Of a stretch of 32,000 bases of DNA, positions 16,142 to 29,433 are shown in pieces. The stretch is from Mycolicibacterium smegmatis (GTDB taxonomy: Bacteria > Actinomycetota > Actinomycetes > Mycobacteriales > Mycobacteriaceae), in the NCBI RefSeq assembly GCF_001457595.1, contig NZ_LN831039.1, positions 1,110,001 to 1,142,000 of the forward strand. The letters run 5' to 3'. Below the pieces are notes generated by a model, which was not told the origin of the DNA, did no database searches, and saw only the letters and a list, made by a program, of their open reading frames with translations. Positions within the stretch are counted from its first letter, which is position 1. Every line of letters starts with the position of its first letter. Position numbers and translations under genes: made by a program.

Positions 16142-16279
16142 GACGTATTCCCTCCGTGCCCGCTGGGTCATAACGTCAAACATGAATTCGTTGATGTCAT
16201 CGCTCGTCGTGGCGTGATGGCGGATGGACGATCTTCTCCAGTGATCCGGAGGACCCACGATGAAGTTCTGCGAGTACAC

Positions 16280-17884
16280 ATGCGGCAGCCGGTGACACGT
16301 CTTCACGCCACGCTCCTGGGCGTGATCGTCGCGATCGCGGCTCTGGCCGGCTGTTCGCGAGGCCCGGTGCAGACCGGCAATGTCTTCGTCATCGCGATCG
16401 AGTCCGAGGCCGACATCCTCGACCCACAGGTCGCCGGCGGCTGGGTGAGCTGGCGGATCAACCGGCAGATCTTCGAACCGCTTGTCGACGAGGATCTTTC
16501 GATGCCGTCGAGCGAGGCGACGGTGCCGCCGCTGCGGCCCGGTCTGGCCGAGTCGTGGGATATCAGCGACGACGGCCTGGAGTACACGTTCCACATCCGC
16601 AAAGACGTGAAGTTCCACGACGGCACGCCGCTGGACGCCCAGGCCGTCGAGTACAACGTCCGGCGCATGTGGGACAAGTCGTCGCCCATGTACAACGCAC
16701 GTGCCGCAGGCCAGACCGGCTTCGTCTGGAAGTTCCTCGATTCGGTGCAGACGGTCGATGATCACACCCTGAAAATGCGTCTGAGCCAGCCGTTCTCGGA
16801 GTTCCTGCGTATGCTCGCCCAGGGCGGCAACGGTTCCACGGCGATCATGAGCCCCACCGCGCTGCAGACCTACGGCGAAGACGTCGCCGACCATCCGGTG
16901 GGCACCGGGCCGTTCAAGTTCAAAGAACGCATCCGCGGCGAACGCATCGACCTGGTGCGTAACGACGACTACTGGGGCAAGGTGCCCTACATCGACGGTG
17001 TCGTCTTCCGTCCGCTGCCCGACCCGTCGGCCCGCACCGCGGCGCTGCGCTCAGGTGACGTCGACATGATCGCGGTGCCCAATCCCGACAGCATCGACAA
17101 CCTGGTCTCCGAGGGTTATCAACTCTCGGAGGGCACCCCGCCGCACACGTGGTACCTGTCGTTCAACATGAAGGACCGCTACACCTCGATTCCCGAGGTG
17201 CGCCAGGCGATCAACCTCGCGGTGGACCGCGAGGGCATGGCCAAGGACATGCTGCGCGGTTCGGTCACCCCGGCATGGGGCGTGCAGGCGCTGTCGGCGG
17301 GCGGATACGTCGAACGCAAGGACATCTACCAGCGCAACCTCGACAAGGCCCGTCAACTGCTGGCGTCGGTCGGGTTGGCCGACGGGTTCCAGACCACGCT
17401 GATCACCTCGACCGACGGATCCGGGCAGATCATGCCCGCCCAGATGGCCGAGTTCATCCAGCAGAATCTCGCCGAGATCGGCATCAAGGTGAACATCCAG
17501 ACCCAGGAATGGATCTCGTATCTGGGTGTGTGGGCACGCGGCATGCAGGACGGCGTCGGTATGGCCCAGATGTCCTGGGGCATGACCAGCCCGTACTGGC
17601 TCTACATCGTGACGTCGTCGGAACTGCAGGCGCCCAACGGTCCCAACGTCGGGTACTACTCCAGTCCGGCGCTGGACAAGGCGATGAACAACGCGATCAC
17701 CGCGCTCGACCCGCAGGAGGCCGAACAGTGGTGGCGCCGGGCCAACAACATCGTCAGCGACGAGGCCGCGCTGGTTCCCATCGTCAACGACAAGGCGCCG
17801 TACGTGCTGGCGCCGTATGTGTCGGGGTTCATCTCGGCGAGTGAGGAATGGTACGACCTCACCTCAGTGAAACTCGAACAGTGA
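16280..17884 (+). CDS. ABC transporter substrate-binding lipoprotein, family 5 (peptide/nickel/opine type)
   Basis: The lipoprotein signal is MRQPVTRLHATLLGVIVAIAALAGC. The body is typical of SBP family 5 (FHIRKDVKFHDGTPLDAQAV..., DDYWG). The track ORF starts at 16214. Confidence 0.9.
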   Translation: MRQPVTRLHATLLGVIVAIAALAGCSRGPVQTGNVFVIAIESEADILDPQVAGGWVSWRINRQIFEPLVDEDLSMPSSEATVPPLRPGLAESWDISDDGLEYTFHIRKDVKFHDGTPLDAQAVEYNVRRMWDKSSPMYNARAAGQTGFVWKFLDSVQTVDDHTLKMRLSQPFSEFLRMLAQGGNGSTAIMSPTALQTYGEDVADHPVGTGPFKFKERIRGERIDLVRNDDYWGKVPYIDGVVFRPLPDPSARTAALRSGDVDMIAVPNPDSIDNLVSEGYQLSEGTPPHTWYLSFNMKDRYTSIPEVRQAINLAVDREGMAKDMLRGSVTPAWGVQALSAGGYVERKDIYQRNLDKARQLLASVGLADGFQTTLITSTDGSGQIMPAQMAEFIQQNLAEIGIKVNIQTQEWISYLGVWARGMQDGVGMAQMSWGMTSPYWLYIVTSSELQAPNGPNVGYYSSPALDKAMNNAITALDPQEAEQWWRRANNIVSDEAALVPIVNDKAPYVLAPYVSGFISASEEWYDLTSVKLEQ

Positions 17885-17894
17885 GGCTCAACCG

Positions 17895-18854
17895 ATGACC
17901 GCAACCATCAGAAATCGTTTACTGTCAACACTTCTCGTCCTGTTCGGGGTCAGCCTCATCGTGTTCCTGCTGCTGCAGCTGGTGCCCGGTGACCCAGCCG
18001 TCACCATCCTCGGTTCCGGGGCAACGGCCGAGGCGGTCGCCGCCCTGCGCACCGAGTTGGGCCTCGACCGCGCACTGCCGATCCAGTTCTTCGACTACCT
18101 CGGCGGCCTCGTGCGCGGCGATCTGGGCCGGTCGCTGACCGTCAACGCCCCGGTCGCCGACATCATGCTGCCGCGGTTCGCCAACACGATCATCCTCACG
18201 GTCGCCGCACTGATCCTGTGCATCGTGGTCGCCGTCCCGCTCGGCGTCATCGCGGCGCACAAGCAGTACAGCATTTTCGACCGCGTCTCGATGATGGTCT
18301 CGCTGGCCGGCGCGAGCGTGCCGGTGTACTGGTTCGGCCTGCTGCTGATCGGTGCGTTCGCCGTCACGCTGGGCTGGCTGCCCACCTCGGGTATGTACAA
18401 CCCGCGTTTCCCCGGTGGATTCACGGATCTGCTGGCGCACCTTGTGCTTCCCGCGATCGCCGCGGCGCTCGTGCCGCTCGCGGTGATCGCGCGGATGACA
18501 CGCAGCGTGATGATCGACATCCTGCAGCAGGACTACATCCGCACGCTGCGCGCCTCGGGCCTGTCGACGAACTCGGTGCTGTGGCGCCACGCCCTGCGAA
18601 ACGCGTTGCCGCCCATCGTCAACATCATCGGCCTGCAGGTCGGGTACCTGCTCGGCGGTGTGGTGTTCGTCGAGGTCGTCTTCGGCTGGCCAGGTCTCGG
18701 CCAGCAGCTCTACACGTCGATCACCCAGCGTGACATCCCGGTGGTGCAGGCCGGTGTGCTGTTCATCGCGCTGGCGTTCGTGATCATCAACCTGCTCGCC
18801 GACGGTGCGGTCGGACTGCTGGATCCGCGTACGAGAAGGAAGGTCGGAGCATGA
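17895..18854 (+). CDS. ABC transporter permease (DppB/NikB-like)
   Basis: The N-terminus is LLVLFGVSLIVFLLLQLVPGDP. The EAA-type loop is DYIRTLRASGLS. Confidence 0.93.
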   Translation: MTATIRNRLLSTLLVLFGVSLIVFLLLQLVPGDPAVTILGSGATAEAVAALRTELGLDRALPIQFFDYLGGLVRGDLGRSLTVNAPVADIMLPRFANTIILTVAALILCIVVAVPLGVIAAHKQYSIFDRVSMMVSLAGASVPVYWFGLLLIGAFAVTLGWLPTSGMYNPRFPGGFTDLLAHLVLPAIAAALVPLAVIARMTRSVMIDILQQDYIRTLRASGLSTNSVLWRHALRNALPPIVNIIGLQVGYLLGGVVFVEVVFGWPGLGQQLYTSITQRDIPVVQAGVLFIALAFVIINLLADGAVGLLDPRTRRKVGA

Positions 18855-19786
18855 GCACACTGGTCGCGGGACGCACGTTCCCGTGGGTCCGCAGATCCTC
18901 GGCCGGCGGACCCGTCCAGGTCGACACCGACACCCCGAAACCGCAGTGGCGCCTGGCCGTCCGGGCGTTCAGCCGCGACCGGATGGCCGTGGTGTCGCTC
19001 GTCGTGCTGGTGATCGTGACGCTCGCGGCGGTTTTCGCGCCGTTGCTCACGCCCTACAGCCCCACCGCGGGTGACCCGGTGGACCGGCTCGCAGGCATCG
19101 GCACCGAAGGCCACCTGCTGGGCCTCGACGGGCAGGGACGTGACATCTGGACCCGGCTGCTCTACGGCGGGCGCAACTCGCTCATGACCGCGGTGGTGCC
19201 GGTGTTCGTGGTGTTCCCGCTGGCGCTGATGATCGGCCTGTTCGCGGGATACCGGCGCAGCCGCGCAGGTGAGGTGCTCATGCGCATCCTCGACGTGCTG
19301 TTCGCGTTCCCGCTGGTGCTGCTGGCCATCGCGCTGTCGGCCGTGCTCGGCGCGGGGCTCGGCAACGTGATGCTCGCGATCGGCATCACGCTCATCCCCT
19401 ACATGGCCCGTGTCGCCTACACCGCGACGGTGTCCGAGGCGAGCAAGGACTACATCGAGGCCGCACGCGCCTACGGCGCCAACCCGCTGCTGCTGATGTT
19501 CCGCGAACTCATGCCCAACGTCGTCGTACAGCTGCTCGTGTACTCGACCACGTTGTGCGGCCTGATGATCGTGGTGGCCTCGGGTCTGAGCTTCCTGGGC
19601 GTCGGCGTCATCCCGCCCACACCGGACTGGGGCATCATGACCGCCGACGGCAAGAACGTCCTGCTGGAGGGCATCTACCACGTCGCGACCATTCCCGGCC
19701 TGCTCATCCTCGTCGTCTCGCTGGCGTTCAACCTCGTCGGCGACGGCATCCGCGACGCCCTCGACCCACGGAAGCAGACCAACTGA
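18851..19786 (+). CDS. ABC transporter permease (DppC/NikC-like)
   Basis: ATGA overlap with the upstream gene. Motifs include LLGLDGQGRDIWTRLLYG and DYIEAARAYGAN. Confidence 0.93.
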   Translation: MSTLVAGRTFPWVRRSSAGGPVQVDTDTPKPQWRLAVRAFSRDRMAVVSLVVLVIVTLAAVFAPLLTPYSPTAGDPVDRLAGIGTEGHLLGLDGQGRDIWTRLLYGGRNSLMTAVVPVFVVFPLALMIGLFAGYRRSRAGEVLMRILDVLFAFPLVLLAIALSAVLGAGLGNVMLAIGITLIPYMARVAYTATVSEASKDYIEAARAYGANPLLLMFRELMPNVVVQLLVYSTTLCGLMIVVASGLSFLGVGVIPPTPDWGIMTADGKNVLLEGIYHVATIPGLLILVVSLAFNLVGDGIRDALDPRKQTN

Positions 19787-20664
19787 TGACACACGCCCTT
19801 GACGTCAAGAACCTGTCCGTGGACTTCCACACCGACAACGGCGTGGTCCACGCGGTCAAGAACGCCGACATCTGTGTGCGCGAAGGCGGAATCCTCGGCC
19901 TGGTCGGCGAATCCGGCTCCGGGAAATCCGTCACGTCGCTGGCGGTGCTGCGCCTGTTGGCCGGCCGGGCCCGGATCACCAACGGAGAGATCCTGTTCCG
20001 GGGCGAGAACCTGCTGGACAAGACCGAGAAACAGATGCGCGCCATCCGCGGCTCACACATCGGGATGGTCTCGCAGAACGCGCTGTCGGCGCTCGACCCG
20101 TCGTTCACCATAGGTGCACAGCTCGTCGAGGTGATCCGGTTGCACCAGGGCGTCGACAAGTCCACCGCGCGGGCCAAGGCGCTGGAGGCACTCGAACTCG
20201 TGGCGCTGCCGGATCCCAAGCGCCGCATGAAGTCCTACCCCCACGAGTTGTCGGGCGGGCAGCGTCAGCGCGTCGTGATCGCGATCGCGCTGTCGTGCCG
20301 GCCCGAACTGCTGCTCGCCGACGAGCCCACCACCGCGCTCGACGCGACCGTGCAGAAGCAGATCCTCGACCTGCTGCTGGACATCAACAAGGAACTGGGT
20401 ACGTCGATCCTGTTGGTCACACACGATTTCGGAGTCGTCGCACACGTGTGCACCGACGTCACGGTCATGCGCCGCGGCGACGTGCTGGAGTCCGGTACCG
20501 CCGATCAGGTTCTCAACAACCCGCAACACCCCTACACCCAGGGACTCATGCGGGCCGTGCCGCGGCTGCACCTCGATGCCACCACGCGCGCCATCCCGCG
20601 CGCGGACCGGCGGTTGTTCGAGTTCCACGGCGACACCACCAAGGAGGCCGCCAATGTCGCGTGA
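19786..20664 (+). CDS. ABC transporter ATP-binding protein (DppD/NikD-like)
   Basis: Walker A is GESGSGKS, the signature is LSGGQRQR and Walker B is LLLADEPTTALD. TGATG junction with the upstream gene. Confidence 0.95.
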   Translation: MTHALDVKNLSVDFHTDNGVVHAVKNADICVREGGILGLVGESGSGKSVTSLAVLRLLAGRARITNGEILFRGENLLDKTEKQMRAIRGSHIGMVSQNALSALDPSFTIGAQLVEVIRLHQGVDKSTARAKALEALELVALPDPKRRMKSYPHELSGGQRQRVVIAIALSCRPELLLADEPTTALDATVQKQILDLLLDINKELGTSILLVTHDFGVVAHVCTDVTVMRRGDVLESGTADQVLNNPQHPYTQGLMRAVPRLHLDATTRAIPRADRRLFEFHGDTTKEAANVA

Positions 20665-21466
20665 AATCTTTGAACCGCTCATCTCGGTCACCGGCCTCAC
20701 CAAGGTGTTCACGGTCCGCGGTGAGGACGGCAAGCGCAGCGAGTTCACCGCGGTCGACGGCGTGAGCTTCGACATCCAGCGCGGCGAGACGTTCGGGCTG
20801 ATCGGCGAATCCGGGTCGGGCAAGACCACGACGGGCCGCATGGTGCTGGGCCTGGAGACGCCGACGTCCGGATCGATCACGTTCGAGGGCAACGAACTGG
20901 TGGGCCTGTCCGATCTCGCGATGCGGCGCTACCGCCGCCACATCCAGATCGTCTTCCAGGACTCCGGGTCGGCCTTCAACCCGCGTCGCAGCGTCGGGGC
21001 GCAGATCTCCTATCCGCTCAAGCTGTTCCGTCTCGCGACACCGGAAGAGGCCCGCAAGAAGACCCTCGAGCTGCTCGAGCGCGTCGGCATGCTGCCCTCG
21101 CACTACGACCGTTACATCCACGAGTTCTCGGGAGGTCAGCGCCAGCGACTCGGTATCGCCCGCGCGCTGATCACCGACCCGGACTTCATCGTGCTCGACG
21201 AGCCGACGGCCGCGCTCGACGTCTCGGTGCAGGCGCAGATCCTCAACCTGCTCAAGGACCTTCAGCTCGAACGCAAACTCACGATGCTGTTGATCACCCA
21301 CAACCTGGCACTCGTCGAGCACATGTGTGAGCACGCCGGGGTGCTCGACCACGGCAGGCTCGTCGAATCCGGCCCGGTGGACCGGTTGCTCACCGAACCC
21401 GGAACCGAGATCACCCGCAAGCTCGTCGACGCCGTGCTCGAACCGGAATTGGAGACCGCGATATGA
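20654..21466 (+). CDS. ABC transporter ATP-binding protein (DppF/NikE-like)
   Basis: Motifs are GESGSGKTT, FSGGQRQR and FIVLDEPTAALD. 11-nt overlap with the upstream gene. Confidence 0.95.
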   Translation: MSREIFEPLISVTGLTKVFTVRGEDGKRSEFTAVDGVSFDIQRGETFGLIGESGSGKTTTGRMVLGLETPTSGSITFEGNELVGLSDLAMRRYRRHIQIVFQDSGSAFNPRRSVGAQISYPLKLFRLATPEEARKKTLELLERVGMLPSHYDRYIHEFSGGQRQRLGIARALITDPDFIVLDEPTAALDVSVQAQILNLLKDLQLERKLTMLLITHNLALVEHMCEHAGVLDHGRLVESGPVDRLLTEPGTEITRKLVDAVLEPELETAI

Positions 21467-22863
21467 CCGACTCGGCACTCGAACGGGCCACCGACACCGT
21501 CCGGCAGACCATCCCCCAGGTGCGGGCCCAACTCGACCGCGGCGAGATCACCCCGGTCGGCCTGGTGCGCCGCGCGTTGGCGCGCATCTCCCACGTCGAG
21601 GACAAGATCCAGGCGTTCGCGGCGGTGTTCGCCGACGAAGCACTCGCGGTGGCGCAGGAGAGCGCGCCGCAGGCCGGCCCGCTGTGGGGCATCCCGGTCG
21701 CCGTCAAGGACATCTACGACGTGGCCGGCTACCGCACCGGAAACGGATCCCGCGGTGCCCCAGAGCATCCCGCACTGCGCGACGCCGATGCCGTCCGGCG
21801 GCTGCGCGACGCGGGCGCCATCATCCTCGGCAAGGCCACCACGCACGAGTACGCCTACGGCGTCACCACGCCGCCGACGCGCAACCCGTGGTCGCTGGAC
21901 CGCATCCCCGGCGGTTCCAGCGGAGGCACCGGCGCGGCCATCGCGGCAGGCGTGGTCGCGGCCGGTCTGGGCACCGACACCGGCGGTTCGATCCGCATCC
22001 CGGCCGCATTGTGCGGCGTCACGGGCCACAAACCGACGTTCGGTCTGGTGAGCCGCAGCGGTGTCAGCGCACTGAGTTCCACGCTCGACCACACCGGGCC
22101 GCTGGGGCGCACGGTCGACGACACCGTCGCCCTGCTCGAGGTCATCGCCGGGCACGACCCGGCCGACCCGTACAGCTCGTCGGCGCCCGTGCCCGATTTC
22201 CGGGCCGAATTCGACCGGGGTTTGGCAGGTCTCACCATCGGCGTCGCCGAACCATATTTCTGCGACCGGCTCACCCCCGACGTCGCCGCGGCGTTCGAGG
22301 AGGCCATCCACACCCTCGAACGCGGCGGCGCCACCATCACCTCGGTGACGTTCACCGACGTCGACCTGTGCCCCCGCGTCGTCGACGTGGTGTGCGGTGT
22401 CGAGGCCGCGGCATGGCACGCCGCGCAGATCGGTATGGCACCCGAGAAATTCAGCCCAGAGGTGCGGGACGCGCTGCGCCTCGGCGCCTCCTACACCGGT
22501 GTGGAATACCTCGAGGCCCGTCGTGCCCGATGTGCGGTGATCGCCGGGATGAACGCCCTGTTCGACTCCGGTCCGGATCTGTTGATCTCACCCACCATCG
22601 CGATGACCGCGCCGCCGTACGGGTCGACACACGTCGATCTCGGCGGACGCACCGTCGGAGTGCTCGACGGGGTCAACGCACTGACCGTCCCGGCGAATGT
22701 GACCGGGATGCCCGCACTGACCGTGCCTGCCGGTTTCGGCAGTGACGGACTGCCGATCGGCCTACAGTTGATGGGCCGGCCGGGGGCGGACGCGACGGTG
22801 CTCGGCGCAGGCCGGGCCTTCGAGCGGATCGCCGGTTTCGTCGACTTCACCCCCAACCTCTGA
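21463..22863 (+). CDS. Amidase-signature (AS) family amidohydrolase 1
   Basis: ATGA overlap with the upstream gene. It has VAVKDIYDVAG (Lys) and the AS signature GGSSGGTGAAIAAGVVAAGLGTDTGGSIRIPAALCGVTGHKPTFG (Ser-cisSer). Confidence 0.9.
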   Translation: MTDSALERATDTVRQTIPQVRAQLDRGEITPVGLVRRALARISHVEDKIQAFAAVFADEALAVAQESAPQAGPLWGIPVAVKDIYDVAGYRTGNGSRGAPEHPALRDADAVRRLRDAGAIILGKATTHEYAYGVTTPPTRNPWSLDRIPGGSSGGTGAAIAAGVVAAGLGTDTGGSIRIPAALCGVTGHKPTFGLVSRSGVSALSSTLDHTGPLGRTVDDTVALLEVIAGHDPADPYSSSAPVPDFRAEFDRGLAGLTIGVAEPYFCDRLTPDVAAAFEEAIHTLERGGATITSVTFTDVDLCPRVVDVVCGVEAAAWHAAQIGMAPEKFSPEVRDALRLGASYTGVEYLEARRARCAVIAGMNALFDSGPDLLISPTIAMTAPPYGSTHVDLGGRTVGVLDGVNALTVPANVTGMPALTVPAGFGSDGLPIGLQLMGRPGADATVLGAGRAFERIAGFVDFTPNL

Positions 22864-22877
22864 GAGCGAGGAGAACC

Positions 22878-23069
22878 ATGTCCGATTTCATGCCATCGCA
22901 GGAACAGATTTCCGCGGCGTTCGAGTTCGCGGGCCTGCCCGTGCCCGCCGAGCGGCTCGCGGAGAACCACACCACGTATGCCGAGACACTGGCCCTGATC
23001 CGCAAGGCCTCCACACCCGGGCTGGGGGAGACCGTCCCGGCACTGGGTTTCAAGGCGCACTGGGACTGA
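22878..23069 (+). CDS. GatC/AtzG-like microprotein (candidate small subunit of an AS amidase)
   Basis: 63 aa. ATG is preceded by GAGGAGAA. It sits immediately upstream of an AS amidase, as atzG does for atzE. The pattern ISAAFEFAGLPVPAERLAEN...ETVPALGF resembles GatC/AtzG (DUF4089-type) proteins, from memory. Confidence 0.6.
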   Translation: MSDFMPSQEQISAAFEFAGLPVPAERLAENHTTYAETLALIRKASTPGLGETVPALGFKAHWD

Positions 23070-23106
23070 CGGCACCCGAATCTGCAGAGCTGAAAGGAAC
23101 ATCCGG

Positions 23107-24513
23107 ATGGAACTCTACGAACTGCCACTGATCGAGGTCGCCGAGAAGATCCGCACCAAGGAGGTCTCACCGGTCGAGGTCGCCGAGTCGTCGCTCGCGC
23201 GCCTGGAGGAGGTCGAACCGCTCCTGACCGCGTTCGTCACCACCACGCCCGAACTCGCCCTCGAGCAGGCCAAGGCCGCCGAAAAAGAGATCGCCGACGG
23301 CAAGTACCGCGGTCCGCTGCACGGAATTCCGCTGGGCGTCAAGGATCTCTACGACACCGCGGGTATCAGGACCACGTCGAGCTCGGCGCAGCGCGCCGAC
23401 CACGTCCCCGACGCCGACTGTGTTTCGGTGGCCAAGCTGTACGACGCGGGCATGATCCTGGTCGGCAAGACCCATACACACGAATTCGCCTACGGTGCAA
23501 CAACGCCCACCACCGGCAACCCGTGGGCGCCGGACCGCACCCCGGGCGGATCGAGCGGCGGTTCGGGTGCCGCGGTCGCCGCGGGCGTCGTGCACGTCGC
23601 ACTCGGTAGCGATACAGGCGGATCCATCCGCATCCCTGCCGCGCTGTGCGGCACCGTGGGCCTCAAGCCGACGTACGGGCGCGCGTCGCGCGTCGGTGTC
23701 GCCTCGCTGTCGTGGTCCCTGGACCATGTGGGCCCGCTGAGCCGCAACGTGACCGACGCGGCCCTGGTGATGCAGGCCATGTCGGGATATGACCGCCGCG
23801 ATCCCGGGACGGCCAACGTGCCCGTGCCCGACATGGTTTCGGGTATCGACGCCGGTGTGGCGGGGAAAAAGATCGGCATCCCGGTCAACTACTACACCGA
23901 CCGGGTCGCCCCCGAGGCCGCCGAGGCAGCGAAGGCGGCCGCGGCCACCTTCGAGAAACTCGGCGCCCAACTGGTCGAGGTCGAGATCCCGATGGCCGAG
24001 CACATCGTGCCGACCGAATGGGCGATCATGATGCCCGAGGCGACCGCGTATCACATGGACTACCTGCGCAATTCGCCCGAAAAGTTCACCGACGAGGTCC
24101 GCACGCTGCTCGAGGTCGGTGCCGCCGAACCCGCGGTCGACTACGTCAACGCGATGCGTCTGCGCACCCTGATCCAGGCCGCGTGGAACGAGATGTTCAC
24201 GGGCATCGACGTGCTGCTGGCCCCCACCGTCGTCGCGCCCGCGACCCTGCGCTCCGACCCGTTCGTGCGATGGGAGGACGGCACCGTCGAGGCCGCGACC
24301 GCCGCGTATGTGCGGCTGTCGGCGCCGGCCAACGTCACGGGACTGCCGTCGCTCTCGGTACCCGCGGCGTTCACGGCCGACGGCCTGCCGCTGGGCGTGC
24401 AGATCCTGGGCAAGCCGTTCGCCGAGCCCGAGATCCTGACGTTCGGCTACGCCTTGGAGCAGAACACCGATACGGTCGGCCGGATCGCGCCGGTCCTGGA
24501 GAAGGTGGGCTGA
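23107..24513 (+). CDS. Amidase-signature family amidohydrolase 2 (GatA/AtzE-like)
   Basis: It has LGVKDLYDTAG and GGSSGGSGAAVAAGVVHVALGSDTGGSIRIPAALCGTVGLKPTYG. ATG is preceded by GAAAGGAA. Confidence 0.9.
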   Translation: MELYELPLIEVAEKIRTKEVSPVEVAESSLARLEEVEPLLTAFVTTTPELALEQAKAAEKEIADGKYRGPLHGIPLGVKDLYDTAGIRTTSSSAQRADHVPDADCVSVAKLYDAGMILVGKTHTHEFAYGATTPTTGNPWAPDRTPGGSSGGSGAAVAAGVVHVALGSDTGGSIRIPAALCGTVGLKPTYGRASRVGVASLSWSLDHVGPLSRNVTDAALVMQAMSGYDRRDPGTANVPVPDMVSGIDAGVAGKKIGIPVNYYTDRVAPEAAEAAKAAAATFEKLGAQLVEVEIPMAEHIVPTEWAIMMPEATAYHMDYLRNSPEKFTDEVRTLLEVGAAEPAVDYVNAMRLRTLIQAAWNEMFTGIDVLLAPTVVAPATLRSDPFVRWEDGTVEAATAAYVRLSAPANVTGLPSLSVPAAFTADGLPLGVQILGKPFAEPEILTFGYALEQNTDTVGRIAPVLEKVG

Positions 24514-24514
24514 C

Positions 24515-24973
24515 ATGGCGCTCGGCACCGGCCTGCGGATCCTCGACACCATCGTCGGCTGGAGCACCGATCAGCCGATCGCAGGCCGGTTGCACGAGCT
24601 GCGCCACCGCCACGCCGTTGAGTACGTGCACCTCGATGCGCACGACCTGGACCGCAAGCGTCTGCGCTTGACATCGGACGCCGGCACCGAGTACGCGATC
24701 GCACTGTCGCGCGACGTCACGCTCGCCGACGGCGCGGTGCTGCTCCTCGACGACGATCGTGCGGTGGTCGTGCGCGCAGGCGCACCGCAGACGCTGACGC
24801 TGCGCGCCGTCGACACCGCGGCGGCCCTGCGTCTCGGGTTCCTCGCGGGGCACCTGCACTGGAAGGTCGATCAGCACGACGACACCCTCGTGGTGCGTCT
24901 GGAGGCCCCGCGCGACGACTACACCGCGCGCATCGCCGACCTGCTGGCGAGCGGCCGGGTCCAGATCACATGA
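24515..24973 (+). CDS. ureE: Urease accessory protein UreE-like (no His-rich tail)
   Basis: Starts 1 nt after the amidase stop. DRKRLRLTSDAGTEYAIALSRDVTLADGAVLL and LGFLAGHLHWKV resemble the UreE N-domain and its GNRH-type motif. Confidence 0.7.
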   Translation: MALGTGLRILDTIVGWSTDQPIAGRLHELRHRHAVEYVHLDAHDLDRKRLRLTSDAGTEYAIALSRDVTLADGAVLLLDDDRAVVVRAGAPQTLTLRAVDTAAALRLGFLAGHLHWKVDQHDDTLVVRLEAPRDDYTARIADLLASGRVQIT

Positions 24974-25632
24974 CCGATCCGGGCCAGCTGATCGCGGCGA
25001 TGCGGTTCGGCGACAGCGCCTTTCCCTCGGGAGGATTCGCGTTCTCGTCGGGTCTGGAGGGCGCGCACCGCGACGGTCTGGTACACGACGAACGCGACGT
25101 CGCCGTGTTCACCGCCGAACAGTTGTGCGGCCGGTGGCACCGCGGCGACCGCGTGCTGCTGCGCATGGCGTGGACGCACGACGATCCCGGCGACGTCGAC
25201 GCGCTCGCCGAGGCGGTCACCACCATGTCCGTGCTGCGTGAGGCGTCCCGACGTGCGGGCGCCGCGACGCTGTCGACGTTCGCCGCGATCACGACCGCCG
25301 ACCACCTGACCCGCTATCGCACCCGGGTGCTCGCCGGCGACGCCCCGGGACACCTCCCGATCGCGCAGGCGCTGAGCTTCCGCGCGGCCGGGCTGACGCT
25401 GCCGACCGCCGAGGCCGTCGCGGCGTGGCAGGTGGTATCGGGCATCACCAGCGCTGCCCTGCGCCTGGGGATCTGCGGACACCTGGGTGCGCAACGCATC
25501 CTGGGCGACCTCACGGCGCCGATGCTGGATGTGCTCGACCGCGAACCACCCGCAGTGCCCGCCACTTTCACCGCCTACGCCGACATCGCCGCGCAGCGCC
25601 GCCGTGATGGCGTGCGGCTGTTCGCCAGTTGA
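24970..25632 (+). CDS. ureF: Urease accessory protein UreF
   Basis: ATGA overlap with ureE. LIAAMRFGDSAFPSGGFAFSSGLE is the UreF N-terminal signature. Confidence 0.85.
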   Translation: MTDPGQLIAAMRFGDSAFPSGGFAFSSGLEGAHRDGLVHDERDVAVFTAEQLCGRWHRGDRVLLRMAWTHDDPGDVDALAEAVTTMSVLREASRRAGAATLSTFAAITTADHLTRYRTRVLAGDAPGHLPIAQALSFRAAGLTLPTAEAVAAWQVVSGITSAALRLGICGHLGAQRILGDLTAPMLDVLDREPPAVPATFTAYADIAAQRRRDGVRLFAS

Positions 25633-25642
25633 AGGAGATCAT

Positions 25643-26299
25643 GTGAACCTCACGCCCACCGAACTCGAACGCCTCACGGTGTTCACCGCCGCCGAGATGG
25701 CGCGACGCAATCTGCGCGAGGGGGTTCTGCTGAGCCATCCCGAGGCCGTCGCGCTGCTCACCGACGAGGTCATGCTGGCCGCGCGCAAGAACCTGGCGTA
25801 CGACGAGGTGGTCGACATGGCCGCGAACCTGCTGCAGGCCAAGGACTGTGAGCCCGGTGTGCCCGACCTGGTGCGCATGGTGATGATCGACGCCCCGTTC
25901 CCCGACGGCACCAAGCTCGTCGCGCTGATCGACCCGATCACCCGGGCCGAGGACGACATCCGGCCGGGGGAGATCATCGTCGGTGACCAACCCGTCGAGC
26001 TGTTCCCTGGCGTCGAGCGCATCACGCTCACCGTGGTCAACCGCGGTGACCGGGACATCCAGGTGCGCAGTCAATCCCATTTCTACGAGACCAACCCCGC
26101 GCTGGAGTTCGACCGTCGCGCGGCATGGGGGTACAAGCTCGACATCGCCTCGGGCGGCGGTGTCCGGTTCGAACCCGGCATCCCGGTCCAGGTCAGCCTT
26201 GTCCCGATGGGCGGTGAGCGCGTGATCCAGGGCTTCTCCGGGCTGGTCAACGGCCCGCTCGACGGTGCCGACCAACTCGCCGAGCAGAAAGGCGCCTGA
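25643..26299 (+). CDS. ureAB: Urease gamma-beta fusion subunit
   Basis: GTG 25643 follows GAAGGAGA. The gamma part is LTPTELERLTVFTAAEMARRNLREGVLLSHPEAVALL...FPDGTKLV. The beta part is PGEIIVGD...NRGDRDIQVRSQSHFYETNPALEFDR...RFEPG. Both lie in one 218-aa ORF. Confidence 0.9.
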   Translation: MNLTPTELERLTVFTAAEMARRNLREGVLLSHPEAVALLTDEVMLAARKNLAYDEVVDMAANLLQAKDCEPGVPDLVRMVMIDAPFPDGTKLVALIDPITRAEDDIRPGEIIVGDQPVELFPGVERITLTVVNRGDRDIQVRSQSHFYETNPALEFDRRAAWGYKLDIASGGGVRFEPGIPVQVSLVPMGGERVIQGFSGLVNGPLDGADQLAEQKGA

Positions 26300-26300
26300 C

Positions 26301-28007
26301 GTGACGACCATCGACCGCCGCTCGTATGCGCGCATGTTCGGGCCCACCAAGGGTGACCGGATCCGGCTCGCCGATTCGGATCTGTTCGTCGAGGTCGAGT
26401 ACGACCACACCGTGCCGGGTTACGAGTTGCTCAGCGGTGCAGGAAAATCCGTGCGCGACGGCGAGGGGTACCGGCCATCGTCCAAACCGTCCGACGGCGC
26501 GCTCGACTACGTCATCATGAACGCCGTCGTGATCGACGCTGTCGCCGGGATCATCAAGTGCGACATCGGTATCCGCGACGGGCGCATCGTCGGCATCGGC
26601 AAGGCGGGCAACCCGGACACCATGCCGGGGGTCACCGAAAGCATGGTCGTCGGCAGCGCCACCACGCCGATCCCGGCCGAGGGCATGATCGTCACGGCGG
26701 GTGCCATCGAGACGCACGCGCACCTGATCTCGCCGCAGCAGACCGAACACGCGTTGTCGACGGGCACCACCACGCTCATCGGCGGTTCACTGGGCCCGTC
26801 GTTCGAGGTCGCGACCGGCGGCCCGCGCAACCTCGGCATGTTCCTCAAGGCCGGTGACTACACGCCCATGAACTACGTGCCGTTCGGGCGGGGTTCGTCG
26901 GATCCGGCCGCGGTGCTGGAGATGGTGGCCGCAGGCGCGGGCGCGGTCAAGATCCACGAGGACTTCGGCGCCTCGCCCGACATCATCGACAAGACGTTGC
27001 AGGCCGCGGATTCCGCAGATTTCGCGGTGCATCTGCACACCGATTCGATCAACGAGTTCGGGTTCTCCGAGATCACCATGTTGACGATCGGCGACCGGAC
27101 CATCCACCTCTATCACGTCGAGGGTGCGGGCGGCGGGCACGCACCCGACCTGATCCGGTGCGTGAGCTTCGACAACGTCATCCCGGGCACCACCAACCCC
27201 ACCAACCCGTACACGTTGGGCGGTCTCGACGAAGGTGTGCCGATGACCATGGCGGCGCACCTGATGAACTGGGAGTCGCCCGAGGACATCGCGTTCGCCG
27301 AGGCGCGGATCCGCCCGCAGACCATGGTGGCCGAGGATCTCCTGCACGACATGGGTGCCATCTCGATCTTCGGCAGCGACACCCAGGGCATGGGGCGAGT
27401 CGCCGAGAACATCGCCAACTGCTGGCAATTGGCCGCGGTGATGAAACAGCGTGTCGGGCGCCTGCCGGAGGAGAAGACCGCCGCGGCCGACAACGAACGC
27501 GTCAAGCGCTACATCGCGAAACTGACCATCAACCCGGCCATCTCGGTCGGCGCCGACGATCACATCGGTTCGGTCGAGGTGGGCAAGGTCGCCGACCTGG
27601 TGATCTGGAAACCCGCGTTCTTCGGCGTCAAACCACAGGTGGTGCTCAAGAACGGCTACATCGCGTGGGCCGCGCTCGGCGACGCGGCCGGGTCGATCTC
27701 GTCGTCCGAACCGATCATCCAGCGCCCCAACTGGGCCGCCTTGGGCGACGCGGCCGCCGACGGCGGATTCGTGTTCATGTCCTCGCTCGCCATCGACGCC
27801 GGGGTGCCCGAACGCCTCGGGCTGCGCAAGCATGTACTGCCCATCAAGTCGGTGCGCTCGCTGCGCAAGAAGGACATGGTGCGCAACGACGCCCTGCCGC
27901 ACGTCGAGGTCGATCCGCGCACCTTCGACGTGCGGGCCGACGGGGTACTGCTCACCGCCGAACCCGCTGTCAGCGTGCCGTTTTCGCGGAAGTTCCTGCT
28001 GCGATGA
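26301..28007 (+). CDS. ureC: Urease alpha (catalytic) subunit
   Basis: GTG 26301. [25 protein letters not shown] is the typical N-terminus. The active-site set is present: [15 protein letters not shown] (carbamylated Lys), [22 protein letters not shown] and [11 protein letters not shown]. Confidence 0.95.
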
Positions 28008-28621
28008 CCACCGCACTCAAGGCAGCACGCATCGGTATCGGCGGTCCGGTGGGCTCGGGCAAGACCGCGCTGGTCGAGGCGCTGCTCGCCGGTTTCGCGC
28101 GGCGGGGTCGCAGCGTGTCGGTGATCACCAACGACCTCGTCACCACCGAGGACGCCGAACGGGTCCGTCGTTCGGGACTGATCGATCCGCGGCGCGTACG
28201 TGCGGTCGAGGCCGGGGGATGCCCGCACACCGTGATCCGTGAGGATCCGTCGCTCAACATGGCCGCGGCCGACGCGCTCGAAGCCGAATTCCCCGACACC
28301 GAGATGATCCTGCTGGAATCCGGCGGCGACAACCTGGCGTCGACGTTCTCGCGGGACCTGGTGGACTACTGGCTCTTCGTGATCGACGTCGCAGGCGGAG
28401 ACGACATCCCACGCAAACGCGGACCCGGCGTGCTGCGCTGCGACCTGCTGGTGATCAACAAGGTCGACCTCGCACCGCACGTCGGCGTCGATCTCGACCT
28501 GATGCGCCGCGAGGCCGACGAAGTCCGCAGCGGCAGAACGGTTGTTGCGATCAGCGCCCGCAACGGGCACGGCATCGACGAGTTGATGGACGTGCTCGAG
28601 CGCGAAGTGCTGTTCGTGTGA
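28004..28621 (+). CDS. ureG: Urease accessory GTPase UreG
   Basis: ATGA overlap with ureC. The P-loop is [11 protein letters not shown], the Ni-binding motif is [11 protein letters not shown], and NKVD is present. Confidence 0.95.
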
Positions 28622-29433
28622 AGCTCGCCGAACGCACGGCGGCCGATCTGCGGTTCGCCCGCGCCGGCGCCCACACGGTGCTGACCCGGCGCCGTCATCG
28701 GTGGCCGTTCGTGATCGGCCGCGTCTTCGCCGACCCGCAGGACCCCGGCCTCGGCACGCTCACCCTGCAGAACGCGGCGGGCACCGTCATCCCCGGCGAC
28801 GTGATCCGCCAGCGCATCGAGGTGGTCGACGGCGGGCGGGCCGCGGTCAACGGGCAGGGGGCCACGCTGATCAGCGGTGTTCCCGGCGGTGACGCGTCGG
28901 CCGAGGAGACCGAGTTGTACGTCGACGCCCACAGTTGGCTGCGGTTCGATCCCGCGCCACGCATCCTCACCGCCCACGCCCGTCATCGCCAGCGCACCGA
29001 GGTGTGCGTCGCACACCGCGGCTGCGCCGTCGTCGTCGACGCCGTGGTGCTGCACCCCGACCTCGACGCGGCGACCTTCGGCAGCATCGAATCCACCGTC
29101 ACCGTCCGCTCGCCCGGCGGCGCACTGCTGGCGATGGACGCACAGGTCTTGGACGCCCCACCCGTGACGGGCCGCTTCACCGCGTTCGGCACGGTCTACT
29201 TCGTCGGGGCGGGCTTCACCGGGGGCCACCATGAGGGCCCGACCGATCCACCCGGCGTCTACACCGCGGTCACCGAACTGCCCAACGGCGCCGGCTGCGC
29301 CGTACGCATCGCCGCCGCGGACGGCGGAACCCTGCGCACCTACCTTCGCCTGCTCTCCGCCGAAACGGCATTCCAGCGGGCGTCCACTCGCACTTTTACT
29401 GACGGAATGCCGTTTCGGCGGAGTCAGGTGTGA
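28618..29433 (+). CDS. ureD: Urease accessory protein UreD/UreH
   Basis: GTGA overlap with ureG. Position, about 270 aa length and general UreD-like sequence support the call. The last ~26 codons are encoded by the hairpin repeat element. Confidence 0.75.
29355..29423. repeat. Hairpin repeat element, copy B (perfect 20-bp stem)
   Basis: CTCCGCCGAAACGGCATTCC (29355-29374) is the exact reverse complement of GGAATGCCGTTTCGGCGGAG (29404-29423). The 29-nt loop is AGCGGGCGTCCACTCGCACTTTTACTGAC. Confidence 0.85.

What the first reader, a model, noticed from the sequence alone, without database searches (positions are those of the whole stretch)
22878..23069. 63-aa GatC/AtzG-like microprotein sandwiched between two amidase-signature genes
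This is a short ORF with a good SD (GAGGAGAA) lying directly upstream of an AS amidase. The arrangement matches atzG-atzE in the Pseudomonas cyanuric-acid operon. There the ~68-aa AtzG, a vestigial GatC, is an obligate partner of the 1-carboxybiuret hydrolase AtzE. The peptide MSDFMPSQEQISAAFEFAGLPVPAERLAENHTTYAETLALIRKASTPGLGETVPALGFKAHWD has the GatC-like layout: an amphipathic helix followed by an extended C-terminal ...VPA..F segment. Such ORFs are easily missed by gene callers. Which of the two flanking amidases it partners is unknown. No GatB-like gene is present.
Basis: partly seen in the sequence, partly recalled or inferred. Interest (0 to 1): 0.62.

Follow-up and report, generated by a model that had tools for sequence, protein, structure and literature searches.

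The report
GatC-like helper subunit of an amidase
The 63-codon gene is real and encodes a distant relative of the small GatC/AtzG helper proteins, most likely the partner subunit of the amidase encoded just downstream; it is a new example of a known two-part enzyme design, not a new kind of system.

Summary
ORF 22878-23069 (+), 63 aa, lies behind the Shine-Dalgarno sequence GAGGAGAA, between two intact amidase-signature genes. It is a conserved coding gene: 44 homologue clusters of 63-70 aa, GC3 of 0.84, and differences among orthologues concentrated at third codon positions.

The window protein gets no hit in Pfam, NCBIfam or the PDB sequence search. Profile-profile comparison of its family does detect GatC (probability 94%, E 1.5e-7) and AtzG (86%, E 4.7e-6), in mutually consistent registers. 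The top four Foldseek hits of its model are GatC chains.

The partner is the downstream amidase (23107-24513). Of 80 relatives of that amidase in Actinomycetota and Pseudomonadota, 68 have a family ORF ending at the amidase start at E < 1e-3. These amidases form one clade (support 100/99). The upstream amidase belongs to a sister clade, is present in only 17 of the 80 loci, and was never seen without the pair.

No physical complex was shown, and an AlphaFold read-through fusion was inconclusive. The substrate is unknown.

This is a new member of a known kind. The scan has reported similar GatC/AtzG-like mini-subunits on other DNA.

The parts
22868..22875 (+). Shine-Dalgarno sequence GAGGAGAA of the small gene
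   Evidence: Read directly from the sequence. It lies 2 nt before ATG 22878 and 4 nt after the stop of the upstream amidase.
22878..23069 (+). 63-aa GatC/AtzG-superfamily small protein. Helices span about residues 8-45. The conserved extended tail reads TPGLGETVPAxxFxAxW.
   Evidence: ORF. Conservation. AF2 monomer with pLDDT 80.5 and helices above 90. Foldseek top hits are GatC chains. hhalign against GatC and AtzG.
23093..23099 (+). Shine-Dalgarno-like AAAGGAA of the downstream amidase
   Evidence: Read directly from the sequence, 7 nt before ATG 23107.
23107..24513 (+). 468-aa amidase-signature enzyme (am2), the inferred catalytic partner of the small protein
   Evidence: PF01425 at E 7e-119. 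The best NCBIfam hit is the AtzE family, 337.6 bits against a cut-off of 461. The best PDB relatives are GatA and AtzE. A family ORF lies directly upstream of its orthologues at E < 1e-3 in 68 of 80 loci. The amidases preceded by a family ORF form one clade with support 100/99. The catalytic motifs are intact.
21463..22863 (+). 466-aa amidase-signature paralogue (am1), an accessory member of the module. It is not the conserved partner, but shared use of the small protein is not excluded.
   Evidence: PF01425 at E 1e-110. It is 42.5% identical to am2. Its clade is sister to the am2 clade with support 94/93. It has no small ORF of its own upstream. It is present in 17 of 80 am2 loci. In the genomes sampled it was found only beside the small-gene/am2 pair.
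16214..21466 (+). Context: family-5 substrate-binding protein plus a Dpp/Opp/Nik-type ABC importer (2 permeases, 2 ATPases) in the same gene string
   Evidence: Pfam and NCBIfam hits. The syntenic annotated loci L003, L007 and L009 show the same genes.
24515..29433 (+). Context: urease genes ureE, ureF, gamma-beta fusion, ureC, ureG and ureD directly downstream
   Evidence: Pfam and NCBIfam hits. Syntenic loci carry the same genes. ureE/ureF follow am2 in only 13 of 80 related loci.

Best explanation
ORF 22878-23069 encodes a 63-residue non-catalytic subunit of the GatC/AtzG superfamily. It is made together with the amidase encoded 37 nt downstream (23107-24513) and binds to it. By analogy with GatC-GatA and AtzG-AtzE, its three N-terminal helices would pack on the amidase, and its invariant extended tail (LGETVPAxxFxAxW) would lie along the amidase surface. 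This would keep the enzyme folded and soluble as a two-subunit hydrolase.

In this genome the pair sits in a nitrogen-scavenging gene string: an ABC importer, a paralogous amidase, the small subunit, the amidase, then urease. The string probably takes up an amide- or ureide-type compound and releases its nitrogen as ammonia.

What is shown: the gene is real and conserved, it is homologous to GatC/AtzG, and it is strictly linked to one amidase clade. What is inferred: physical binding, a chaperone-like role, and the pathway.
For: The gene is conserved and coding.

Homology to GatC/AtzG rests on several tests:
- The narrow family profile gives P about 4e-4 against both AtzG and GatC. Residue offsets are consistent: micro x corresponds to AtzG x-1 and GatC x-2.
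- No shuffle out of 150 reaches the real score, in either direction of shuffling.
- The 90-sequence family profile gives 94% probability and E 1.5e-7 against GatC (micro 5-56 aligned to GatC 3-54), and 86% and E 4.7e-6 against AtzG.
- Relatives hit TIGR00135 gatC at E 2e-5 to 2e-4.
- The family HMM scores genuine GatC proteins at 16-25 bits.
- The relative in L165 hits all three HMMs.

Structure: the AF2 monomer has confident helices at 8-17, 24-29 and 31-45 and a low-confidence but invariant tail. The four best Foldseek PDB hits out of 350,542 chains are GatC chains, and 4wj3_C and 3kfu_G also appear.

Partner:
- The small ORF lies directly upstream of an am2 orthologue in every fetched locus that has downstream DNA.
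- It precedes am2 in 68 of 80 am2-related loci at E < 1e-3, with weaker matches in another 10.
- In L005/L006 it precedes am2 with no am1, ABC importer or urease present.
- Amidases preceded by a family ORF form one clade, with SH-aLRT 99 in the quick tree and 100/99 in the careful tree.
- The nearest solved structures of am2 are GatA and AtzE, both of which have such a partner. 6c62_A matches with TM 0.95 and rmsd 1.7.
- Of the 16-17 AS amidases in this genome, only gatA and am2 have such an ORF upstream.

Literature: AtzG is a non-catalytic, obligate partner, AtzE is insoluble without it, and the pair is thought to derive from GatCA (PMC6219798).
Against: The window protein gets no hit in Pfam, NCBIfam or the PDB sequence search. 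The Foldseek E-values of 0.9-1.7 are not significant on their own. An AF2 model of a natural in-frame read-through fusion (L061) did not raise confidence in the conserved tail, with pLDDT 38-62 over residues 51-70. Binding is therefore not shown, and no PAE or coordinates were available. The careful tree does not resolve how the am2/am1 clade relates to GatA and AtzE.
Confidence: 0.8

Rival explanations
1. The small protein serves both flanking amidases. Either it acts as a shared helper, or it bridges am1 and am2 in a mixed complex, much as GatC contacts both GatA and GatB.
For: The gene lies between the two amidases, 14 nt after am1 and 37 nt before am2. The am1 clade is the sister of the am2 clade (94/93) and has no small ORF of its own. 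In the 401 genomes sampled, every am1-type match of at least 45% identity lies beside a small-gene/am2 pair. An earlier scan note on another genome (e1-4231590) reached a similar reading.
Against: Most loci (63 of 80) have the small gene and am2 without am1, so am1 is dispensable for the pair. All fetched loci were selected through am2 or the small gene, which biases the apparent dependence of am1. There is no structural or co-variation evidence for an am1 interface.
Confidence: 0.15
2. The small protein is conserved but does something other than act as an amidase subunit. It could be a regulator, a carrier-like adaptor to the urease or the transporter, or a translational-coupling leader.
For: No complex has been shown, and the AF2 fusion left the conserved tail at low confidence. 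The direct family HMMs are negative.
Against: Homology to GatC/AtzG is supported by several independent tests. Linkage is to the amidase and not to the urease or ABC genes, which are absent from most loci. The peptide sequence itself is under purifying selection, which argues against a mere leader.
Confidence: 0.04
3. The ORF is a chance open frame in GC-rich intergenic DNA and is not expressed.
For: Many spurious ORFs of this size occur in the window. No translation evidence was obtained.
Against: The family spans two phyla with a conserved length and motif. Variation shows third-position bias. The ORF has a strong SD. Its position is conserved in 68 of 80 loci at E < 1e-3.
Confidence: 0.01

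Closest known systems
AtzG-AtzE, the 1-carboxybiuret hydrolase of Pseudomonas sp. ADP (plasmid pADP-1 atzDGEHF; PDB 6C62/6C6G; Pfam PF13318 AtzG-like)
   Same: A protein of about 65 aa is encoded immediately upstream of a GatA-like amidase-signature enzyme, and no GatB is present. The profile-profile match to the AtzG family gives 86% probability and E 4.7e-6 over residues 10-50. The am2-orthologue part of the read-through fusion model (L061, 83% identical to am2) superposes on 6c62_A with TM 0.95 and rmsd 1.7 A at 34% identity. The setting is nitrogen-compound catabolism.
   Different: The Pfam PF13318 model does not detect the window protein. The conserved tail is LGETVPAxxFxAxW rather than AtzG's ELAEIYRPAPFPA. 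The amidase scores below the AtzE equivalog cut-off, 337.6 against 461 bits. No AtzH/HpxZ-like gene follows; ureE follows instead. No atzD or atzF is present. The substrate is unknown.
GatC of the GatCAB tRNA-dependent amidotransferase (PF02686, TIGR00135; PDB 2DF4, 4WJ3, 3KFU)
   Same: This is the best profile-profile match, with 94% probability and E 1.5e-7. Residues 5-56 align to GatC 3-54, including the conserved Pro of the V(E/P)PT motif. GatC chains are the top Foldseek hits. The gene order, small gene then amidase, is the same. GatA chains are the closest sequence relatives of am2.
   Different: The protein has 63 aa, against 99 aa for this genome's own GatC. It lacks the C-terminal third that contacts GatB. 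No gatB is adjacent. The genome keeps a separate, genuine gatCA(B) at C1:2514040. The context is catabolic, not translation.
HpxX-HpxW-HpxZ of the enterobacterial oxalurate pathway (NCBIfam NF033624 HpxX)
   Same: This is another small AtzG-type protein paired with an AS amidase acting on a ureide. AtzG itself weakly matches the HpxX model.
   Different: The window protein has no match to NF033624, and there is no HpxZ/AtzH homologue. The comparison rests on family annotation only.

Membership tests
GatC (PF02686 / TIGR00135) | Sequence matches the curated family model above its cut-off | tested here: not met
   The window protein has no hit at E <= 1. None of the 43 close homologues hits it. 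More distant family members reach 12-24.7 bits against a cut-off of 47.1.
GatC (PF02686 / TIGR00135) | Homology detectable at profile level, in a consistent register | tested here: met
   hhalign gives 94% probability and E 1.5e-7 over 52 columns. The narrow profile scores 24.3, against a maximum of 17.9 in 150 shuffles.
GatC (PF02686 / TIGR00135) | Full-length protein of about 95-100 aa with a GatB-contacting C-terminal part, and gatB in the system | tested here: not met
   The protein has 63 aa, against 99 aa for the genome's own GatC. No GatB-type gene is in the operon.
GatC (PF02686 / TIGR00135) | GatC-like fold of the N-terminal helical part | tested here: inconclusive
   The top 4 Foldseek hits are GatC chains with TM(query) 0.39-0.52, but E is 0.9-1.7.
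AtzG-like (PF13318, DUF4089) | Sequence matches the Pfam model above its cut-off (24 bits) | tested here: not met
   There is no hit on the ORF. The best relative tested scores 13.4 bits.
AtzG-like (PF13318, DUF4089) | Profile-level homology to AtzG homologues | tested here: met
   hhalign gives 86% probability and E 4.7e-6. The narrow profile gives P 4e-4, and 0 of 150 shuffles reach it.
AtzG-like (PF13318, DUF4089) | Protein of about 68 aa encoded directly upstream of its AS-amidase partner | tested here: met
   AtzG is encoded 2 nt upstream of AtzE in pADP-1.
AtzG-like (PF13318, DUF4089) | Obligate physical complex: the amidase is insoluble without the small subunit | not testable with these tools
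   This is known for AtzEG (PMC6219798). The AF2 read-through fusion here was inconclusive.
AtzE 1-carboxybiuret hydrolase (NF006631 / TIGR02715), for the partner amidase | Score above the equivalog cut-off | tested here: not met
   The amidase scores 337.6 bits against 461, and 329.8 against 425.75. In the careful tree AtzE lies outside the am2/am1 clade, and deeper relations are unresolved.
atzG-atzE-atzH cluster (Esquirol et al. 2018, PMC6219798) | An AtzH-like (PF11533) gene accompanies the pair | tested here: not met
   The next gene is ureE. The 135-aa gene after the pair in L005 has no PF11533 hit, whereas true AtzH scores 190 bits.

The most novel reading that the evidence does not exclude
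The small protein is a belt shared by the two paralogous amidases. It would tie am1 and am2 into one hetero-oligomer that carries out two successive amide cleavages on an imported ureide-type compound and passes urea to the co-encoded urease. This would be a catabolic analogue of the way GatC holds GatA and GatB together.
Probability: 0.1. Interest if true: 0.65.

Novelty: new member of a known kind. Interest (0 to 1): 0.35.

Why it matters
The family is large. At least 585 related amidase loci were matched in one species-level genome collection, across Actinomycetota and Pseudomonadota. Current Pfam and NCBIfam models do not detect it, so these genes are annotated as 'hypothetical protein' next to a generic 'amidase'.

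Recognising the amidases as two-subunit enzymes matters in practice. Expressing such an amidase alone would probably give insoluble or inactive protein, as happens with AtzE. It also answers the question of which of the two flanking amidases is the partner, and it marks the operon as a candidate pathway for an unidentified nitrogen source. The idea itself, a vestigial GatC retained by GatA-derived amidases, was published in 2018, and this scan has met it repeatedly.

Tried and rejected
- **Direct family searches.** Pfam and NCBIfam scans of the window protein and its 43 close homologues found nothing. A PDB sequence search with the family profile at E <= 10 also found nothing. A six-frame PF13318 search of the genome did not hit the ORF.
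- **Locus search with the broad alignment.** It was replaced by the genome search and by a search with the amidase alignment.
- **Pseudo-complex.** A natural in-frame read-through of the single TGA between the small gene and the amidase in L061 (11-residue linker) was folded with a mixed alignment. The overall model was excellent (pLDDT 91.9). The conserved tail stayed at pLDDT 38-62, and no PAE or coordinates are returned. This neither supports nor refutes binding.
- **AtzH-like third gene.** The idea was rejected.
- **Deep phylogeny.** The quick tree joined am2+am1 with GatA+AtzE (89). The careful mixture-model tree did not resolve this, so the claim was dropped.
- **Esquirol et al. 2018 JBC (PMC5961051).** The paper is not held. 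Facts about AtzG come from PMC6219798.

Full report
**Observation.** GAGGAGAA lies at 22868-22875. The ORF starts 14 nt after the stop of a 466-aa gene (21463-22863) and ends 37 nt before a 468-aa gene (23107-24513). Both neighbours are Pfam Amidase PF01425 (E 1e-110 and 7e-119). Their best NCBIfam matches are the AtzE family, followed by other amidase models and gatA, and all are below the curated cut-offs. Both keep the VKD lysine, GGSSGG and DTGGSIR motifs of the Ser-cisSer-Lys triad. Upstream lies a family-5 SBP with a Dpp/Opp/Nik-type ABC importer. Downstream lie ureE, ureF, a gamma-beta fusion, ureC, ureG and ureD (and the syntenic loci). No GatB-type gene is present.

**Is it a gene?** GC-rich DNA throws up many ORFs of this size, so conservation is the real test. 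A search of 5.8 billion proteins found 44 clusters, nearly all of 63-70 aa and at 62-98% identity. Those that carry a name are from Mycobacterium and are labelled 'hypothetical protein'. They share an invariant C-terminal block, TLALIRKASTPGLGETVPAxxFxAxW. A profile search of 1.84 billion representatives added about a dozen more distant small proteins with the same LGETxPAxxFxAxW ending. The ORF's GC3 is 0.84, against 0.87-0.90 in its neighbours. Among ten orthologues, differences fall 661/374/1333 on codon positions 1/2/3. It is therefore a conserved protein-coding gene. It is also often called by NCBI and JGI pipelines, so it is under-annotated rather than missed.

**Homology.** The window protein and its 43 close homologues get no Pfam or NCBIfam hit. 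The family profile gets no PDB sequence hit. The PF13318 six-frame search of the genome does not touch the ORF.

I then fetched authentic AtzG from pADP-1 (L026:3219-3425) and its homologues. I also took 30 diverse actinobacterial GatC proteins from whole genomes. hhalign of the 24-sequence family profile gave P = 4e-4 against AtzG (micro 8-49 aligned to AtzG 7-48) and P = 3.8e-4 against GatC (micro 5-54 aligned to GatC 3-52). AtzG against GatC, a pair known to be related, gave only P = 0.13, but in the register the other two alignments predict. Column shuffles of either side never reached the real scores: 0 of 150, with a maximum of 17.9 against 23.4 and 24.3.

After the family was broadened to 90 sequences (see below), the values rose to 94% probability and E 1.5e-7 against GatC, and 86% and E 4.7e-6 against AtzG. 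Further links:
- Individual family members hit TIGR00135 gatC at E 2e-5 to 2e-4.
- The family HMM scores genuine GatC proteins at 16-25 bits.
- One member (in L165) hits the family, GatC and AtzG HMMs together.

An AlphaFold2 monomer has confident helices at 8-17, 24-29 and 31-45 (pLDDT above 90). Its extended tail has low confidence, yet it is the most conserved part of the sequence, which is the signature of a segment that folds on a partner. The four best Foldseek matches among 350,542 PDB chains are GatC chains (2df4_C, 2f2a_C, 9a62_B, 2dqn_C), and 4wj3_C and 3kfu_G also appear. Their E-values of about 1 carry no weight alone. Taken together, the protein belongs to the GatC/AtzG superfamily but to neither curated family.

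**Which amidase is the partner?** In Mycobacterium sp. MS1601 and several metagenomic mycobacteria the whole arrangement (ABC importer, am1, small gene, am2, urease) is conserved. In L005/L006 the small gene is followed only by the am2 orthologue, in an unrelated neighbourhood.

In a 401-genome sample of the order, 13 genomes carry the family by the narrow profile, and two more do by the broad profile. Only one of the 33 other genomes sampled from the window's genus has it. In every locus with downstream DNA, an am2 orthologue (53-88% identity) starts within a few tens of bases of the small ORF. An upstream amidase is often absent.

Approaching from the amidase side, a pattern search of one genome per species returned at least 585 relatives. 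The best 80 (52-88% identity) come from Mycobacteriaceae, Rhodococcus, Streptomyces, Geodermatophilaceae, Pseudonocardia, Kineococcus, Arthrobacter, Burkholderiales, Rhodospirillaceae, Nevskiaceae and Paracoccaceae. Of these, 78 show an upstream ORF matching the family profile, 68 of them at E < 1e-3. The two exceptions are one locus with only 137 nt of upstream DNA and one weak match.

All amidases preceded by a family ORF form a single clade, with SH-aLRT 99 in a 97-row tree and 100/99 in a 50-row mixture-model tree. am1-type amidases form the sister clade (94/93) and have no small ORF of their own. They accompany the pair in 17 of 80 loci. In the 401 genomes, they were found only beside a small-gene/am2 pair. 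ureE/ureF follow am2 in 13 of 80 loci, and an ABC ATPase precedes it in 16 of 80.

The conserved unit is therefore small gene + am2. am1, the importer and the urease are lineage-specific additions. Of the 16-17 AS amidases in this genome, only gatA and am2 have a GatC-like gene in front. The nearest solved structures to am2 are GatA and AtzE. For the modelled orthologue, 6c62_A matches with TM 0.95 and rmsd 1.7 A. How the am2/am1 clade relates to GatA and AtzE is not resolved by the careful tree.

**Mechanism.** By homology and by the published behaviour of AtzG, which is non-catalytic, forms an obligate heterotetramer and is required for AtzE solubility (PMC6219798), the most likely role is a structural subunit of am2. 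It would be co-translated from the same mRNA. In other lineages the two genes abut or overlap; Streptomyces members overlap by 11 nt.

I tried to test binding with the tools at hand. In several loci the two genes share a frame and are separated by one TGA. The L061 read-through, which has an 11-residue linker, was folded with a mixed alignment. The model is excellent overall (pLDDT 91.9, pTM 0.90). The helices stay near 90, but the conserved tail remains at 38-62, and neither PAE nor coordinates are returned. This test is inconclusive.

**Pathway context.** The substrate is unknown. The operon composition suggests uptake and deamidation of an amide- or ureide-type nitrogen source, ending in urease.

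A transcriptome paper on M. smegmatis lists msmeg_1084 (a peptide/opine/nickel ABC transporter component, annotated as such) through msmeg_1090 as induced by nitrogen starvation. Three consecutive entries are msmeg_1088 'Glu-tRNA amidotransferase' (4.6-fold), msmeg_1089 'hypothetical protein' (4.6-fold) and msmeg_1090 'amidase' (5.2-fold) (PMC4222082). A second paper reports msmeg_1085 induced 7.7-fold (PMC4617892). This order matches am1, small gene, am2.

The window's genome is a 6.98-Mb, single-contig Mycolicibacterium whose GatC is 95% identical to that of M. goodii. It may be that species, but names are withheld and I could not verify this. I treat the expression data as a lead, not as evidence.

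**Comparison and novelty.** The system works like AtzG-AtzE and like the GatC-GatA half of GatCAB. It is not a member of Pfam GatC, Pfam AtzG-like or the AtzE equivalog, and it lacks the AtzH/HpxZ gene of the described atzG-atzE-atzH clusters. It is thus a further, uncatalogued branch of a known design.

Earlier notes of this scan describe comparable GatC/AtzG-like mini-subunits in Bacillales, Chloroflexota, Azorhizobium and others. I did not check those notes, and they are not used as support. They do show that the theme recurs. Interest is moderate to low. The result is solid, is useful for annotation and for anyone expressing these amidases, and leaves an open substrate question. It is not surprising to a specialist.

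Noticed in passing
window 21463-22863, and loci L056-L074, L156, L157: The upstream amidase (am1) belongs to a clade sister to am2. In the genomes sampled it occurs only next to a small-gene/am2 pair, whereas the pair mostly occurs without it. This suggests a tandem duplicate that stays dependent on the module.
   Followed up: partly
L097, L101, L102, L109, L114, L115, L118, L123, L124, L127 (Streptomyces, Nocardiopsis, Streptosporangium, Sphaerisporangium): In these lineages the small protein has 69 aa and overlaps the amidase start by 11 nt. It ends ...DTPPAPAYRAEQE... instead of the ...F.A.WE ending, so it is a distinct tail variant.
   Followed up: no
L005/L006 8001-9610 (metagenomic Mycobacterium): The small-gene/amidase pair sits without the ABC importer, am1 or urease. 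Nearby are AAA_15/AAA_21 ATPase, UvrD-like helicase and Abi_alpha genes, so the two-gene module moves independently of the operon.
   Followed up: no
L007 6001-7611; L058, L061, L063, L068, L073, L096, L104: In at least eight loci the small gene and the amidase are in the same reading frame, separated by a single TGA and 1-10 codons. One mutation or a stop read-through would give a fused protein.
   Followed up: partly
window 24515-29433, and L003, L007, L009: The urease genes stand in the order ureE, ureF, gamma-beta fusion, ureC, ureG, ureD, directly coupled to the amidase. The order is conserved in related mycobacteria, but urease genes follow am2 in only 13 of 80 amidase loci.
   Followed up: partly
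window 16214-24513: M. smegmatis msmeg_1084-1090 (the same gene order, including a 'hypothetical protein' between a GatA-like gene and an amidase) are reported as induced 4.6- to 52-fold by nitrogen starvation (PMC4222082). No GlnR binding was detected upstream of msmeg_1084 or msmeg_1090. Whether the window is that locus could not be verified.
   Followed up: partly
genus-level distribution: Only 1 of the 33 other genomes sampled from the window's own genus carries the small gene. The module is an accessory, patchily distributed trait.
   Followed up: no
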